This document shows, piece by piece, positions 3,151 through 57,950 of a DNA stretch of 64,000 nucleotides (positions within the stretch are counted from its first letter, which is position 1; every line of letters starts with the position of its first letter). Origin of the DNA: Octopus vulgaris (lineage: Eukaryota); contig OX597818.1 of NCBI GenBank assembly GCA_951406725.2, forward strand, positions 77,066,001 to 77,130,000. The letters are read 5' to 3'. The notes beneath the pieces were generated by a model, which saw nothing but the letters and a program-made list of their open reading frames with translations, was not told the origin of the DNA and made no database searches. Position numbers and translations under genes: made by a program.

Positions 3151-3493
3151 TACGGAGATGTATTTGCATAGCAAGTGACATGATCTGAGATTGTGTGCTG
3201 GAACAAAAACAATTGCAGCCTGGAAGGTGTTTATAAGCCATTTAAGAAACACACAAAAACTGTTAGATTCACTTCAACATTTAAATTTAATTTGCCAAAA
3301 TATTTTCACTGCATTGAGACCGCGACCTGTTCACTGACAAAATTCCATGCAGCACGGTATTTTGTCAGTGAACAGGTCGCAGTCTCAAAGCGACGAAAAT
3401 ATTTTGGCAAATTAAATTTAAATGTTGAAGTGAATCTAATGGTTTTCGTGTGTTTCTTAAATGGCTTATAAACACTTTCCATGCTGCAATTGT
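3151..3493. mobile_element. Asymmetric foldback element with hammerhead-like motifs (Penelope-associated type)
   Basis: Inverted arms 3209-3350 / 3352-3493, an unpaired ~58-bp extension on the left, and a 10-bp direct repeat AATTATATAT on both flanks. Confidence 0.8.
3361..3411 (+). ncRNA. Minimal type I hammerhead ribozyme, G3-C8 core variant
   Basis: TTTGTCA [GTGAACA] G GTCGC-agtctcaaa-GCGAC [GAAA] ATAT TT TGGCAAA: stem I TTTGTCA/TGGCAAA, stem II GTCGC/GCGAC, palindromic stem III region AAAATATTTT. Confidence 0.7.
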
Positions 3494-5180
3494 AATTATA
3501 TATGTAATAGACAAAGAAAAAAGTGGGAAAGTTTGTAGCAGAATAAATGAAGTGAATATTAAATTCTGGCAAATAACACTGTGTAACATGATTTTTGTCC
3601 TTAGGTAGTAACTATCATTTCCTATGTGCTTACTCCTAGTGAAGAATCCCTCTCAACACATAGCTCTGATTCTCCTTCACTTCTACTGCTCATGATCAGA
3701 GATGCACATATTGTCAGCCACTATATACACATATTGTGAGTGACATACTCAGTTGGCTATGGTCAAGCAACTGACAAGTGAGTCTGTGGTATTGAGCAGA
3801 ATATTTGTTGTAATGATATTTCTGCTTCAACAGCTCAGTGCTGAATCTGTTTGAAATGTAATGGGAAATATGTCAGTTTTGAAACATTCATGTCCAGGTC
3901 ACAAAAGCAAAGTTTGAAGGGAATAGTAGTCATTTCCTTTGATTTCTAGATAGAAAAGAACACTTACTGACCAAAGACAAGAAAAAAAAAATAATAATTT
4001 GGGTTCACAGTGTAATTGTGTTTTGTTTTCTAGATGAATAGTTTGTAAGTTTGTTTTCTTGTAATATCAGCTTTACAAAAGTCGTTATTTCTATAGTTCA
4101 TGTGGTTTTTCTTATGTACTTGAAGTTAATATATTTATGAGTGTTATTAAAATATTAATGCAGTATGTAATATTACAAGTGGTATACAGCATATGGAATT
4201 TGTAATCTCAGAAAAATGAATAATTGTGGATGATTATGATGGCTGATGTGTGTCATCGGTTTGACTTAGTAGTTATATTCAAGTAATGCTTCTCTTTTAT
4301 TTGCATACTAATAAGTGAAACACTAATATTTAACAAAATTATTCATTCTTAAGTTTTGTGGTTAGTAGCAAAGTTTGTCTATATTCAGTTGTAGATAATA
4401 AATTGCAATTAAATTTCATTTACTTACGTGAATATTTACGTAAGTAAATGTCATATAAAATGTATAATAAATGTTTATTTACATACAAATGATTCTTTAG
4501 TAATGTGAATATCTACATACAAAAGCTTTTTTTTAATAAATGTATTATTTTTTTTGTCAAATGCAATCAAATTAATACACATTATCAATTTGGTTATATT
4601 ATAGGAATGAACTATTTATGTCTTAAGGTTTCTGTGTTGACATGCTAAGACTGAGTGCTTTTTGCTGAGTGTATTATTTGCAAGTATATTCTAATAAGTT
4701 TCAGCTGTGCTTAAGTTGCATAGTTTTACATTACCACAATACAATTGGCAATTGACAATGTACTCTTTCACAGGCTTTTTTTTTTTTTTAATTTCCCCAA
4801 ATGTACAAGTACAAAGAAGTATCTTTAATACCTTCTTTATGTTGTGAGATGTATGGGTGCTTTAATCGTAGTGGGTTTTGATCTGTATTGATGTTAGTCA
4901 CACACAAATTTTAAATATATTGTATGTCTGAATTATGTATTTATATATTATATCCTTTGCTGGACATTTTAATTCTTTGAAGATAGTTTGTTTGGTCAGT
5001 GCATTTTCAGTGTGAGTTTGTCTAACTCATTGTTGGTTTGTTAGTTTTATAGCTATTGGAAGAAGCAAATTTGCTGGACAAAATTGGAAAGGGTTGAATA
5101 TTTTGTAATATTTGTGTATTATATGAATGTTTGGTTATTACTTATTTTTTTCTTCATCTATTATGTATACAATTGCTATA

Positions 5181-5350
5181 GGTGCAGACATGGTTGTATG
5201 GTAAGAAGCTTAGTTCCCAACTACATGGTTCTGGGTTAAGTCCCACTGCATGGCACCTTGGGCAAAAGTCTTTTACTATAGCCTCGGGCTGACCAAAGCC
5301 TTGTGAGTGGATTGGGTAGATGGAAACTGAAAGAAACCCATCATATATAT
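5181..5350 (+). mobile_element. tRNA-derived SINE family B (GGTGCAG.CATGG.TGT.TGGTAAGAAGCT...)
   Basis: A/B-box-like head and body shared with copies at ~14500, ~19960, 21300-21690(-), 22243-22605, ~23930-24080(-), 27465-27857(-), 34400-34840(-), ~50910. Confidence 0.8.
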
Positions 5351-5352
5351 AT

Positions 5353-5618
5353 AGTGAGAATTTACAAAAAATCAAAAGACGAAGACAGGTGTGTAAAGAA
5401 CAAACAGATGTATTAGTTTAAAACTCAGGAAGTGAGTCTTTTACTTTTCGAGCCTACGCTCTTTGACAGAAAAGAGCACAGAAATAAACAAGGAGAGAAA
5501 ATAGAAAACGGTTTAGTGGCTAGAGATCTATCGTGGCGAATGCCGGACAGAGGGGTCACACAGGAGAGCTAGGAAGAAGGGGAGATAATAAAGTAGTGGT
5601 GATCCCAAAACGAAGGTG
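5353..5618 (-). mobile_element. Probable Penelope-like terminal fragment with a degenerate hammerhead motif
   Basis: Minus strand 5437-5476: TCTTTT CTGTCAA A GAGC-gtag-GCTC GAAA AG TA AAAGA; inserted in the (TA)/(TG) tail of a SINE. Confidence 0.5.
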
Positions 5619-54806: not shown

Positions 54807-54894
54807 ATAACAACAATGATGTTGCATGCACATTTGACTCATGAATATAGTGTTGCATGCCATTTGAGTCACAAATATGACATTGCATGCCTAT

Positions 54895-55090
54895 GAATAG
54901 TTAAGAAGGAAGGCAGGGAAGTTGACCTATACAATCCTCTTAAATACAAGGCAACCTGACTGTGGAAGAGGAAAAAGATGAAGACAGTGCCAATTATTGT
55001 TGGGGTCTTGGGGACAGTACCAAAAGGTATTAAGAGGAACATAAAAGGCTTTATGCACAACTTCTTAAACCTTTATTCACTCCAACAACT
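54895..55090 (+). mobile_element. R4/Dong-like RLE domain fragment
   Basis: LWKRKKMKTVPIIVGVLGTVPKGI, typical VP.IVGALG.VPK motif. Confidence 0.6.
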
Positions 55091-57506
55091 CTGAAATTAC
55101 GTTTGAATTATAAATTCTGTTCACTACAGTGATACATATTTTGCTTATTCATTTTTCCTTCCAAATATATATCTACCTACTCAATGATGAACCACTTATA
55201 GCCATTCTTTGCTATGCAGCTACAACACCACTTTTGTTATAGTCACAGTTCAAGTCAGATTTAGTGAGCATTTATTGCATATAGCCATTACATTGTCATT
55301 AGATACAATTTTATCTGTACTCTCAGCCTTGACATTATATAATAGTTGTAAGCAAGAATTGTTCTTTCTTTCAAATCTATCATAAAAACATAGCTGGCCA
55401 TAAGAAAATAATATCTTGCTTGAAAACAGGTAAGAGTTCATGACAGGAAAGGCATCAGGTTGTAGAAAATCTACCTCAGTGAATTCCAACTGACCATGCA
55501 AACATGGAAAAACAGACATCACAATGATGATGATGATGATGATAATAAAGGGTGGGGGTGATGATAATGATGATGATGATGATGAATGTTAATTTGTTGA
55601 CAGTTTGACTTTTCTAAAAGCAAGTTAAGCATTTATTTGTTAGAAATAGATACACCATTGAATTAGTCTCATTTTAAAGTATACGGTTTGGTAAGGTATT
55701 TTTTATTTAAATTTTGGAATTCATGAACATTCTAGAGAAGTAGAAATTTATATTTTGGAATGGAATAAAGAAGAAACAGAATAATAAAAATTGGTTGAAA
55801 AAAACAACAAAAAACAAAACAGTGTCTGTCCACAAGTACAGAATAGTAAAGATAATAATAATAATAATAAATGCTTTAAATTTTGGCACAAGTCCAGCAA
55901 TTTTAATCCAGTAGAAAGTATTATTACTATTATTACAATTATTATTATGATGATTATTATTATTATTATTATTATTATTATTATTATTATATTTTCAACA
56001 GCTTTTTGCACATTCATACACTTTTGTGTAGCATTGTCTTCTGGAAATGTAGAATTATGTCTGCATACTGTATTTGTTGTTTCTGATGTTATTTTAGTAT
56101 TTCATCTGTTGCATGGAGTATAATGATAATGATAAAAATAATGATGATGATGATGATGACAATAATAATAATAAATAAATGAATCAATAAATAAAAAATT
56201 AGATTGTTTGGATGTATATTACTTGAGAATCATTAAACTAACCAGCTGATAAATGTCAACATTACCATTGATGCTTTGTTATTATCAACAATTATAGAAG
56301 AATATAATTATAATAATTAAATTTATATCAGCTTGAATATTATACAATTAATTATAAATATAACATGCTCATGTACGCACACACGCACACACACACACAC
56401 AAGTACTATGAAGAAGTGTCAACCTTAAGGCTGTCTTCTTTTGAGTGACAATGTTCATTTTGTCAAGAGAAAATCAAATGCACCAAGTGAGAAACTCTGA
56501 GTATATCTGGAGTGTATTGCCAGCTTCATAGAAATAAATATTTACTTTGTAATGTGTATTGAATACTCCTTCACTCAATTTTGAACAAAATAACCTAAAA
56601 GCAAAACCAAATATGGGTTATGGGTGTATGTAAACATAGTATAAATATGCGTGTGTAAACACACACACAGAGATTATATGTCTATAAATATATGTGTATA
56701 TATGTAATTCATATATATATATATATATATATATATATACACACACATATATATACACCCACACCCCTACCCCACCCCACACATGCAAATCTATATATAA
56801 ATATATTTCTCTTTCTCTCTCCATTTGTGTGTAGGTGTATATATATACATATATATATATATACATGGAAGTATATATGTATGTATATATGTTTCTGTAT
56901 GTATGGAGTTTGTTGGATTGTATATACATATATAGATATACACTTATATATGTACATATATATATATATATATCTATATATATATATATATATATATATA
57001 TATATATGTATAAACACATGTATGTATGCGTATATATAATTTATGTATTCATACATACACATGGATTCAGGCAAAAGACTTGAAAACAAGAAGACTACAT
57101 CTTTGGTACACTAGCATAAATCATAAAGCAGATTCTTCAAACAGACAGAAATAGTTCAATTTTGACTTCCTTGTCTACTTTCCTTTGTCCATATCATTCA
57201 AACAAAAGAAGTTGAGAGAGATACATAGACAGATGTTTGATAAAAGTTACAGATTAAATCTACACATATAATTAAAAGTATTTCATTGGTCAAGAAACCT
57301 TGGCAATTCTTAAAAGCCAGAAACATTTAAAATTGATACAGGGTATGTTGTAATGATAAAGCTGATGATTATGATGATGATGATGATGATGCCAATGACG
57401 GTGATGAGTGTGGATAATAGTAATAGTAATATTAATAATAATAATAACAACAACAACAATATTGATAAAGAAAAATATTGTTATCTTTTGAAACACATGT
57501 ATATAT

Positions 57507-57950
57507 GGAGTAAAGATTTTTGCCAACATAACATGGCAGTCATGGTTTAGGGCGAATGTTGCTGTAATTTAGCCCCAGGAGACATCGTCTCCAGCTGGCT
57601 ATACGACACGATCCGTGTCCTTATATTTTCAAACAAGGGAATCTAGAACCCCACTCAGCTCAAAACAATATCTGTGTATCGTGTATCACGATTTCCGAGT
57701 TATTTCCCTTCATCACCTGGAAATTGCGATACACAGATATTGTTTTGAGCTGAGTGGGGGTTCTAGATTCCCTTGTTTGAAAGTATAAGGACACAGATTG
57801 TGTCGTATAGCCAGCTGGAGACGATGTCTCCTGGGGCTAAATTACATCAACATTTGTCCTAAACCAGGACTGCCATGTTATGTTGGCAAAAATCTTTACT
57901 CCAAAGTACTGTTACTGAATACCTCTCGCTGTGAGATTTAAATAAAAAAA
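57507..57950. mobile_element. Asymmetric foldback element in a (TA)n context
   Basis: Near-identical inverted arms 57506-57696 / 57719-57903, ~22-nt spacer, ~47-bp unpaired right extension ending AATAAAAAAA; flanking direct repeat GTATATAT. Confidence 0.8.

What the first reader, a model, noticed from the sequence alone, without database searches (positions are those of the whole stretch)
3151..57950. Candidate system: sequence-unrelated, TSD-flanked, asymmetric head-to-head foldback elements carrying hammerhead ribozymes
Seen: three elements with no obvious mutual similarity (3151-3493, 33559-34046, 57507-57950) share one architecture. Each is an inverted dimer joined at the centre with little or no spacer. 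One arm is 26-58 bp longer than the other, and the whole is flanked by a variable-length AT-rich direct repeat (10, 14 and 8 bp). In two of them a minimal type I hammerhead reads from the centre outward. Established: Penelope-like retroelements (GIY-YIG endonuclease) carry minimal type I hammerheads with palindromic stem III in their pseudo-LTRs, often have inverted terminal copies, and leave variable TSDs. Inference: these are several families of non-coding, retrozyme-like parasites mobilised by a Penelope RT/endonuclease that yields hairpin dimers on insertion. They would be misannotated as MITEs.
Basis: partly seen in the sequence, partly recalled or inferred. Interest (0 to 1): 0.85.

Follow-up and report, generated by a model that had tools for sequence, protein, structure and literature searches.

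The report
Penelope retrotransposons spawning their own mini-copies
The three fold-back repeats are short insertions that carry the known footprint of Penelope-type jumping genes; two of them are the tail ends of protein-coding Penelope elements in this octopus genome, and one of those elements carries a tRNA-like stretch that likely acts as a promoter and lets it shed its own SINE-like offspring.

Summary
The three foldbacks are real, and each belongs to a repeat family (6,271, 5,067 and 474 exact motif hits). Their layout is the published insertion signature of Penelope-like elements (PLEs): head-to-head arms, one arm longer by a fixed 'tail', and mostly 11-18-bp TSDs. It is not a new system, and the copies are not MITEs. 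The three differ in kind. E1 is the 3' end of a PLE with an intact 1,025-aa RT/GIY-YIG frame; its family has an overlooked G3-C8 hammerhead that covaries with a sibling PLE. E2 is the 3' end of a decayed PLE whose 3' UTR holds a tRNA-like A/B-box segment, and short copies pile up at that segment's start. E3 is a 350-bp tandem retrozyme with no partner found; its hammerhead is truncated here and its 8-bp TSD is weak. In 24 of 62 inverted insertions each arm holds sequence the other lacks, which rules out a self-copied hairpin and fits two separately primed cDNAs. Cleavage and promoters are untested. The scan noted the tRNA-headed element before on other DNA, as a SINE borrowing PLE enzymes; the head lying inside the coding PLE is what I add.

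The parts
3151..3354 (-). E1 long arm: family F1 positions 4-207, the 3' terminus (pLTR plus tail) of a coding PLE
   Evidence: 88% identical to the end of the young 1,025-aa element
3151..3208 (-). E1 tail (58 bp); in tandem PLE copies this sequence runs on into the first codons of the ORF
   Evidence: L298, L244
3347..3493 (+). E1 short arm: F1 positions 3-149, stopping at the family's fixed short end
3361..3411 (+). Minimal type I hammerhead-like motif with G3-C8 core, palindromic stem III and H17=U; cleavage untested
   Evidence: C3-G8 counterpart in a sibling PLE
3291..3341 (-). Second copy of the E1 motif, with stem II decayed
3141..3150 (+). E1 left TSD copy
3494..3503 (+). E1 right TSD copy
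33551..33777 (-). E2 short arm: family F2 positions 3-235
33780..34048 (+). E2 long arm: F2 positions 1-260, the 3' UTR/pLTR plus tail of a decayed coding PLE
33780..33845 (+). tRNA-like segment with A box (33781-33791) and B box (33825-33835); mirror copy at about 33712-33777 on the minus strand; predicted Pol III promoter
   Evidence: (weak Rfam tRNA hit in a family copy)
33606..33649 (-). Minimal type I hammerhead, left arm, core intact, CpG decay in stem III
33929..33971 (+). Minimal type I hammerhead, right arm, C3U
34024..34048 (+). E2 tail (about 25 bp)
33545..33558 (+). E2 left TSD copy (14 bp, overlapping the short end)
34047..34060 (+). E2 right TSD copy
57506..57715 (-). E3 short arm: positions 94-298 of the 350-bp F3 retrozyme unit
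57712..57942 (+). E3 long arm: unit positions 106-334, 16 bp short of the family's long end; TSD not reliable
57673..57715 (-). Truncated hammerhead (no C3, no 5' strand of stem I)

Best explanation
All three are insertions with the fixed two-end footprint of Penelope-like elements, likely made when the PLE reverse transcriptase-endonuclease cuts both target strands about 12-14 bp apart and primes one cDNA at each of two fixed sites on a short RNA from the element's 3' end. One cDNA would start at the long end (with the tail) and the other at the short end (without it). They run toward the RNA's 5' end, stop at independent points and are joined head to head; repair leaves the TSD. Shown here: the two fixed 3' ends, the variable centre, the TSDs, the same layout in multi-kb coding copies, and that either arm can be the truncated one. 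Inferred: the RNA sources. For E1 it is likely a capped Pol II RNA starting about 30 nt below a TATA-like box in the pLTR of the 1,025-aa PLE family; short copies lose the box and would be dead on arrival. For E2 it is likely a Pol III RNA from the tRNA-like A/B-box segment 39 nt behind the stop codon of a decayed PLE; short copies keep this internal promoter and could act as SINE-like masters. For E3 it is likely a multimeric or circular RNA of a 350-bp retrozyme, copied in trans by a PLE I did not identify. The hammerheads come along as part of the terminus; I found no sign that cleavage sets the ends.
For: Fixed ends: F1 147-153 vs 203-207, F2 226-236 vs 257-260, F3 290-305 vs 348-350. Position-ordered samples give short+long inverted insertions in 13 of 27, 32 of 87 and 17 of 29, with TSDs in 8, 23 and 11 of these; mismatched-flank controls gave 7 of 156, 8 of 992 and 1 of 272. 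The tail-bearing arm begins >20 nt downstream of the other arm's start in 6 of 13, 10 of 32 and 8 of 17, and in 2 of 7 multi-kb coding insertions. All 15 distinct places fetched for the 1,025-aa ORF end in F1, and 7 are inverted with one short and one long end; Pfam GIY-YIG passes its cut-off, E 1.8e-5. F1 arms: 17 of 40 start at -5..+4 and none further up; G precedes position 1 in 12 of 22 motif hits where the template has C or T (33 and 5 of 38), P about 1e-4. F2: all 30 endonuclease loci continue into the same UTR; 27 show the start of the head and 20 both boxes. Of 85 head-bearing arms, 45 start in -20..+3, none between -116 and -45, and 16 run 123-767 nt up into the ORF. No T4 run lies in the unit. 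F3: 350-bp tandem units, with arms that cross unit boundaries. In vitro, the anole PLE cuts and extends both strands and starts RT at two sites that bound the tail (PMC11167929).
Against: No biochemistry here. Rfam finds none of the hammerheads and scores the tRNA-like head at 13.2 bits against a gathering score of 29, E 6.1, with no hit in a second copy. RNA-seq is unstranded, shows both strands equally and no pile-up of ends, so it supports neither promoter. No PLE ORF was found upstream of F3 in 99 loci. The F2 partner's longest open frame among 150 scored hits is 569 aa; its Pfam RVT_1 score is just under the cut-off and its endonuclease has no Pfam hit. Independence of short F2 copies rests on one site (ORF-linked 8A/6G, short 9A/28G, p 0.045). 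About half of F1 and F2 insertions are single-armed, which the model does not explain. In F1 only the tail-bearing arm was truncated (6 vs 0).
Confidence: 0.8

Rival explanations
1. One reading: independent non-coding retrozyme-like parasites whose cDNA folds back and copies itself into a hairpin dimer.
For: F3 is non-coding and tandem, with a hammerhead in each unit and no partner found. Junctions often sit in short palindromes. Self-priming was proposed for head-to-head PLE copies in PMC3846280. Arms of one young insertion are closer to each other (0.44%) than to other insertions (1.17%).
Against: A self-copy must be nested in the first cDNA, yet in 24 of 62 insertions the tail-bearing arm lacks 5' sequence that the tailless arm has. 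F1 and F2 are the ends of coding PLEs. In F2 and F3 the arms of one insertion differ as much as arms of different insertions (0.074 vs 0.071; 0.070 vs 0.069); this is uninformative in star-like families.
Confidence: 0.08
2. All short F1 and F2 copies are only random 5'-truncations of full-length PLE transcripts, and the apparent starts are RT stalls at microsatellites or hairpins, with no short RNAs or promoters involved.
For: PLE copies are heavily 5'-truncated (PMC8557442). A (TACA)n tract lies just upstream of F1 and a short palindrome marks the F2 start. The F1 start also looks like a splice acceptor (YAG is kept in both subfamilies).
Against: No F1 arm of 40 ends in the 35 nt above position -5, and a non-templated G precedes position 1 in 12 of 22 hits. 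F2 has 45 starts in 24 nt against none in the 72 nt from -116 to -45, placed where a Pol III start would lie relative to the A box.
Confidence: 0.1
3. Ordinary MITEs or foldback DNA transposons.
For: Each copy alone is a short inverted repeat between direct repeats.
Against: Asymmetric fixed ends, variable centres, TSDs mostly 11-18 bp, many single-armed and tandem copies, and shared ends with RT/GIY-YIG elements.
Confidence: 0.01

Closest known systems
Insertion units of endonuclease-bearing Penelope-like elements (PMC3846280, passages; PMC8557442, passages; PMC11167929, parts 1-2 of 4)
   Same: Inverted head-to-head 5' junctions, an optional tail at one end, variable TSDs, AT-rich targets, a hammerhead in the pLTR, a TATA/Inr-like motif in the pLTR, and a tail overlapping the ORF start.
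   Different: The tails are about 25, 52 and 58 bp here, against 30-40 bp in print. Most copies are only 200-350 bp per arm and begin at discrete points. The self-priming model in PMC3846280 does not fit the non-nested arms.
Metazoan non-LTR retrozymes (PMC7229834, passages; bioRxiv 10.64898/2026.07.22.740005, parts 1-3 of 5)
   Same: F3 is a 350-bp tandem unit with a type I hammerhead, the same size as the mussel repeats (350-390 bp). PLE origin and mobilisation are already proposed, including birth from a PLE terminus.
   Different: The passages I read do not describe head-to-head two-end insertions. Circular RNA and cleavage are not shown for F3, and it has no identified partner.
Minimal hammerheads of PLEs (PMC4209133, parts 1-2 of 4)
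   Same: Extra base between positions 9 and 10.1, G10.1-C11.1 (F1, F2), palindromic stem III. Pairs of motifs 100-700 bp apart on opposite strands are already reported in Schistosoma.
   Different: That paper reports the U3-A8 variant; F1 has G3-C8, which PMC11167929 describes as a partly active engineered double mutant. I could not read Lunse et al. 2017, which may list it as natural.
Schistosome SM-alpha/Sj-alpha SINE-like hammerhead elements (as reviewed in PMC6765202 and PMC8490949, passages)
   Same: A Pol III-type promoter followed by a type I hammerhead in a short repeat.
   Different: Those are tandem units with no coding partner named in the passages read. F2's promoter-like segment sits inside the 3' UTR of a coding PLE, and its copies carry the PLE footprint.
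Cassandra, Helenus and Ajax TRIMs (PMC10886601, passages)
   Same: A small-RNA-derived Pol III promoter captured in a terminal repeat.
   Different: Those are non-autonomous LTR elements, which that paper expects not to share long LTR stretches with their helpers. Here the coding PLE carries the segment itself.

Membership tests
EN+ Penelope-like element (F1 parent) | Single ORF with PLE-type RT and GIY-YIG endonuclease | tested here: met
   1,025-aa open frame with YVDD motif; Pfam GIY-YIG over cut-off; weak alignment to another PLE RT. Pfam RVT_1 did not hit. Clade not determined.
EN+ Penelope-like element (F1 parent) | pLTR with optional tail, tandem or inverted units | tested here: met
   7 inverted multi-kb insertions with short and long ends; the tail runs into the ORF start in L298 and L244
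EN+ Penelope-like element (F2 parent) | Single ORF with RT and GIY-YIG endonuclease | tested here: inconclusive
   Decayed: 569-aa frame, RVT_1 E 2.7e-6 but under cut-off, no Pfam hit on the endonuclease; homologues carry RVT_1, and 3 of 120 listed carry GIY-YIG. Penelope/Poseidon assignment is from recalled motifs.
EN+ Penelope-like element (F2 parent) | pLTR hammerhead, tail, inverted units | tested here: met
   ORF-bearing inverted insertions with short and long ends, e.g. L463; a hammerhead-spanning match lies downstream in 19 of 30 endonuclease loci
tRNA-derived SINE (F2 short copies) | Internal A and B boxes 30-35 nt apart near the 5' end | tested here: met
   The family majority matches a relaxed A/B-box pattern based on the consensus in PMC8969392; the window's decayed arms miss it; starts cluster 0-20 nt above the A box
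tRNA-derived SINE (F2 short copies) | Recognisable tRNA ancestry | tested here: inconclusive
   Rfam tRNA 13.2 bits, E 6.1 in one copy, none in another; ARAGORN calls it only at a lowered threshold
tRNA-derived SINE (F2 short copies) | Mobilised by a LINE through a LINE-like 3' end with a simple-repeat tail | tested here: not met
   The 3' end is that of a PLE, with two fixed ends and inversions
tRNA-derived SINE (F2 short copies) | Pol III transcription and self-propagating master copies | not testable with these tools
   Unstranded RNA-seq is uninformative; one weakly skewed site
Non-LTR retrozyme (F3) | 150-450-bp non-coding tandem units, each with a type I hammerhead | tested here: met
   350-bp period in L084, motif in each unit; multi-unit arms in other loci
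Non-LTR retrozyme (F3) | Self-cleavage and circular RNA | not testable with these tools
   No RNA ends at the cut; reads joining unit end to unit start could come from tandem DNA copies
Minimal type I hammerhead (F1, F2, F3) | Core bases, stems I and II, palindromic stem III, covariation | tested here: met
   Family majority sequences and folds; paired changes against a sibling PLE (F1) and related retrozymes (F3), judged by eye; no relative compared for F2
Minimal type I hammerhead (F1, F2, F3) | Match to a curated hammerhead model | tested here: not met
   No Rfam hammerhead hit at E<=10
MITE | Symmetric terminal inverted repeats with a fixed short TSD | tested here: not met

The most novel reading that the evidence does not exclude
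A coding Penelope element captured a tRNA-derived Pol III promoter in its own 3' terminal repeat and so became the source of its own SINE-like parasite: a SINE born inside its helper and spread by PLE rather than LINE enzymes. Together with the other two families, it shows that a PLE inserts by priming two separate cDNAs, one at each of its two RT start sites, which explains the head-to-head inversion and the one-sided tail in a single step.
Probability: 0.55. Interest if true: 0.72.

Novelty: new variant of a known kind. Interest (0 to 1): 0.55.

Why it matters
How PLEs build their inverted, tailed insertions is an open question (PMC8557442, PMC11167929). These short, abundant families give countable genomic evidence against self-priming and for two primed cDNAs, and a young intact family sits in the same genome for a direct assay. 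SINEs are normally paired with LINEs. A tRNA-like promoter inside a coding PLE that yields thousands of short copies would be a different route to a SINE. I did not find it in the searches listed; Repbase/Dfam entries and paywalled papers were not searchable. In practice, such copies are easy to file as MITEs or unclassified SINEs. The general architecture is old news, which caps the score.

Tried and rejected
Rfam scans for hammerheads: no hit. ARAGORN on the window: none. Partner search by GIY-YIG family and other PLE proteins: about 90 loci of other PLE families carried no F2 or F3 end; two F1 copies beside a 717-aa PLE only share its (TA)n target. A DNA search with the F2 3' part returned no candidates, probably because the search skips very common words; an exact pattern worked. 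A loose-end variant seen in RNA reads has no match in this genome. A 600-bp stretch shared by two F2 loci was another repeat inserted in the AAT tract. My first screen of F2 upstream flanks looked only at headless copies and missed the coding partner; it turned up. Hammerhead cut as 5' end of F3 arms: 8 of 70 starts fall in positions 121-130, against 7 in each of two other 10-nt bins, and 5 of 50 in a second sample; rejected as unsupported. Run search: no RNA holder listed. RNA reads of three runs (one study; species label differs from the best holders) cover F2 and F3 on both strands with mixed flanks and no clustered ends; read as passive transcription, not as evidence on promoters. The first samples were ranked by similarity and biased by the query, so they were replaced by position-ordered ones for counts. 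In one F1 sample 6 loci shared flanks with L268 and one more was flagged as a duplicate; that sample is not used for counts. A multiple alignment misplaced the sibling PLE's motif, so that comparison is by eye. Lunse et al. 2017 is not held. Sequence look-ups in earlier notes found nothing.

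
Full report
Setting. The window is G000:C5:77066001-77130000 in a 2.8-Gb genome of 227 contigs. The top protein hit of a retroelement from this genome is labelled Octopus vulgaris, so I treat it as an octopus genome. I call the elements E1-E3 and their families F1-F3. Positions are counted along each family's unit.

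1. The observation. Blastn confirms foldbacks at 3209-3493, 33551-34023 and 57506-57903, with no similarity between the three. E1 has a 58-bp longer arm and a 10-bp direct repeat. E2 has an arm about 25 bp longer and an exact 14-bp repeat that overlaps its own ends. E3's long arm follows its family only to position 334 of 350, and its 8-bp repeat abuts a (TA)n run; my TSD finder reports none. Exact 25-26-nt motifs occur 6,271 (F1), 5,067 (F2) and 474 (F3) times, with 0 for the reversed controls; these are lower bounds.

2. Architecture across copies. In similarity-ranked copies both 3' ends are fixed and the centre varies: short and long ends at 147-153 and 203-207 (F1), 226-236 and 257-260 (F2), 290-305 and 348-350 (F3). 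Those samples were biased by the query, so I recounted on copies taken in genome order. F1: 27 insertions (30 loci, 3 duplicates dropped): 13 inverted short+long, 1 other inverted, 13 single. F2: 87 insertions covering 98 of the first 100 listed matches (3 duplicate loci dropped; one insertion already seen as L027 was not refetched): 32 inverted short+long, 12 other inverted, 41 single, 2 other. F3: 29 insertions (1 duplicate dropped): 17, 7 and 5. TSDs of at least 10 bp, not low-complexity, flank 8 of 13, 23 of 32 and 11 of 17, mostly 11-15 bp; mismatched flank pairs give 7 of 156, 8 of 992 and 1 of 272. This is the PLE signature in print: an inverted 5'-truncated copy, an optional 30-40-bp tail at one end, and variable TSDs (PMC3846280 and PMC8557442, passages). 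Hammerhead pairs 100-700 bp apart on opposite strands were already noted in Schistosoma (PMC4209133).

3. The arms are not a self-copied hairpin. A fold-back copy must be nested in the first cDNA. Yet the tail-bearing arm starts more than 20 nt downstream of the tailless arm in 6 of 13 (F1), 10 of 32 (F2) and 8 of 17 (F3) insertions; the reverse holds in 0, 10 and 4. In these 24 of 62 cases each arm has sequence the other lacks. The same is seen in 2 of 7 multi-kb coding insertions. Two separately primed cDNAs explain this, and the anole PLE in vitro cuts and extends both strands and starts RT at two sites bounding the tail (PMC11167929, parts 1-2). Arms of one young insertion differ by 0.44%, against 1.17% between insertions, so both usually come from one source lineage. 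Whether one RNA is read twice or two RNAs are used is open. In the older families within- and between-insertion divergence are alike for F2 and F3 (0.074 vs 0.071; 0.070 vs 0.069) and lower within for F1 (0.043 vs 0.059).

4. E1 is the end of a coding PLE. Following F1 upstream led through a (TACA)n tract to RT and endonuclease frames. All 15 distinct places fetched for this ORF end in F1, and 7 are multi-kb head-to-head insertions with one short and one long end. One has an intact 1,025-aa frame with a YVDD motif and a Pfam GIY-YIG hit over cut-off. E1's arms are 88% identical to the young element's end; a loop type close to E1's is ORF-linked in L245 and L248; and in L298 and L244 the tail runs on into the ORF's first codons. 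Short copies start at a sharp point: 17 of 40 arms at -5..+4, none further upstream, about 30 nt below a TATA-like box. A G precedes position 1 in 12 of 22 motif hits lacking the genomic upstream sequence (2 of the 22 are unrelated loci), where the template has C (33) or T (5); P is about 1e-4 at 18% G. I read this as a copied cap on a short Pol II RNA (cap copying by RT is recalled knowledge). The site also resembles a splice acceptor, which I could not exclude. The family has a hammerhead-like motif with G3 and C8; a G/A variant in stem I keeps the pair, and the young copy folds with stems I and II at z -3.5. A sibling PLE with a 57% identical protein has at the equivalent place a C3-G8 core and a compensatory change in stem II, and its own tail of about 57 bp (compared by eye, since the aligner misplaced it). 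C3G/G8C is partly active in vitro.

5. E2 is the end of a PLE that carries a tRNA-like segment. The unit reads: A box, 33 nt, B box, (AAT)n, minimal hammerhead, short end, tail, with no T4 run. The tRNA ancestry is weak by model: Rfam 13.2 bits, E 6.1 in one copy and nothing in another; ARAGORN only at a lowered threshold. In 2.04 Mb of fetched DNA, the 7 head matches outside the F2 samples all lead into the F2 body. Upstream of the head, a subset of copies share several hundred bases that encode the C-terminus of a PLE-type protein. Searching with that protein, all 30 loci continue into the same UTR; 27 show the start of the head about 39 nt after the stop codon and 20 show both boxes. The parent is decayed: its longest open frame among 150 scored hits is 569 aa, RVT_1 scores just under cut-off, the endonuclease has no Pfam hit, and 3 of 120 listed homologues carry GIY-YIG. 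Its ORF-bearing copies also form short+long inverted insertions. Of 85 head-bearing arms in genome order, 45 start in -20..+3, 19 at +4..+30, 5 at -29..-21, none from -116 to -45, and 16 run 123-767 nt into the ORF. That is where a Pol III start would lie. Whether short copies propagate on their own is weakly supported by one site (8A/6G vs 9A/28G, p 0.045; the stronger skew comes from biased, partly duplicated samples). Earlier scan notes read this element as a SINE borrowing Penelope enzymes; my data agree on the enzymes and add that the head lies inside the coding element.

6. E3 is a retrozyme fragment. F3 forms 350-bp head-to-tail arrays with a type I motif in each unit, and some arms cross unit boundaries, which needs a multimeric or circular template. 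Related families show paired changes in the motif. In E3 the junction removes C3 and one strand of stem I. No PLE ORF was found upstream of the element in 99 F3 loci. 5' ends are not clearly enriched at the predicted cut (8 of 70, against 7 in each of two other bins; 5 of 50). It matches the non-LTR retrozymes of PMC7229834 (passages), whose PLE origin is argued in bioRxiv 10.64898/2026.07.22.740005 (parts 1-3 of 5; supplements closed). The two-end footprint is indirect evidence that a PLE mobilises it.

7. What the hammerheads do. Nothing here shows cleavage. Rfam's hammerhead models miss all three. Unstranded RNA-seq covers F2 and F3 on both strands with no clustered ends. A head-to-head dimer puts only one motif on each strand, so it would not supply the tandem partner that minimal hammerheads need (inference from PMC4209133).

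8. Novelty. The shared architecture is known, and so are PLE hammerheads, PLE-derived retrozymes and Pol III-type hammerhead repeats in schistosomes (PMC6765202 and PMC8490949, passages). Captured small-RNA promoters in terminal repeats are known for non-autonomous LTR elements (PMC10886601, passages). I did not find in print a coding PLE with a tRNA-like promoter in its terminus or a twin-priming account of PLE inversions (2 papers, listing only). The octopus repeat annotation PMC13282606 (passages) lists recently active Penelope families and many unclassified SINEs but no such link; its supplements were not read. Lunse et al. 2017, Repbase and Dfam were not available and may cover the G3-C8 variant or these families.

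Verdict. A real feature and correctly tied to Penelope, but mostly a known signature. The new parts are the promoter-like segment inside the F2 parent, the cap-marked short RNA of F1, the G3-C8 motif and the count against self-priming. New variant of a known kind; interest 0.55.

Noticed in passing
window 28270-28577: A fourth, older foldback (74% arm identity) from a further repeat family with its own fixed short and long ends about 47 bp apart. Hammerhead and partner not established.
   Followed up: partly
window 24955-25193 (+): A second F1 copy, single-armed, that keeps the upstream TATA-like box and (TACA)n tract.
   Followed up: partly
window 29368-30924 (+): Three open frames that look like a broken endonuclease/RT LINE (type judged from recalled motifs).
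   Followed up: no
L121-L125, L161-L165, L296-L305, L346-L357: At least four young PLE families with long open frames (781, 717, 1,025 and about 1,312 aa). The 717-, 1,025- and 1,312-aa families show two 3' ends; the 781-aa family has a U3-A8 hammerhead-like motif.
   Followed up: partly
L350:665-730 (-): The sibling PLE's hammerhead-like motif seems to have C in place of A9; activity unknown.
   Followed up: no
L128:440-990, L146, L148: Retrozyme-like relatives of F3, one with a period of about 360 bp and a U3-A8 core.
   Followed up: partly
L268, L290-L295: Seven F1 hits share identical structure and flanks on different contigs or places, so one F1 insertion has been multiplied inside a larger repeat.
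   Followed up: no
L122, L125, L128, L129, L163, L170, L175, L176: Short foldbacks of other families turn up often in loci fetched for other reasons. In transcripts they would form double-stranded RNA; a link to A-to-I editing is a guess and was not tested.
   Followed up: no
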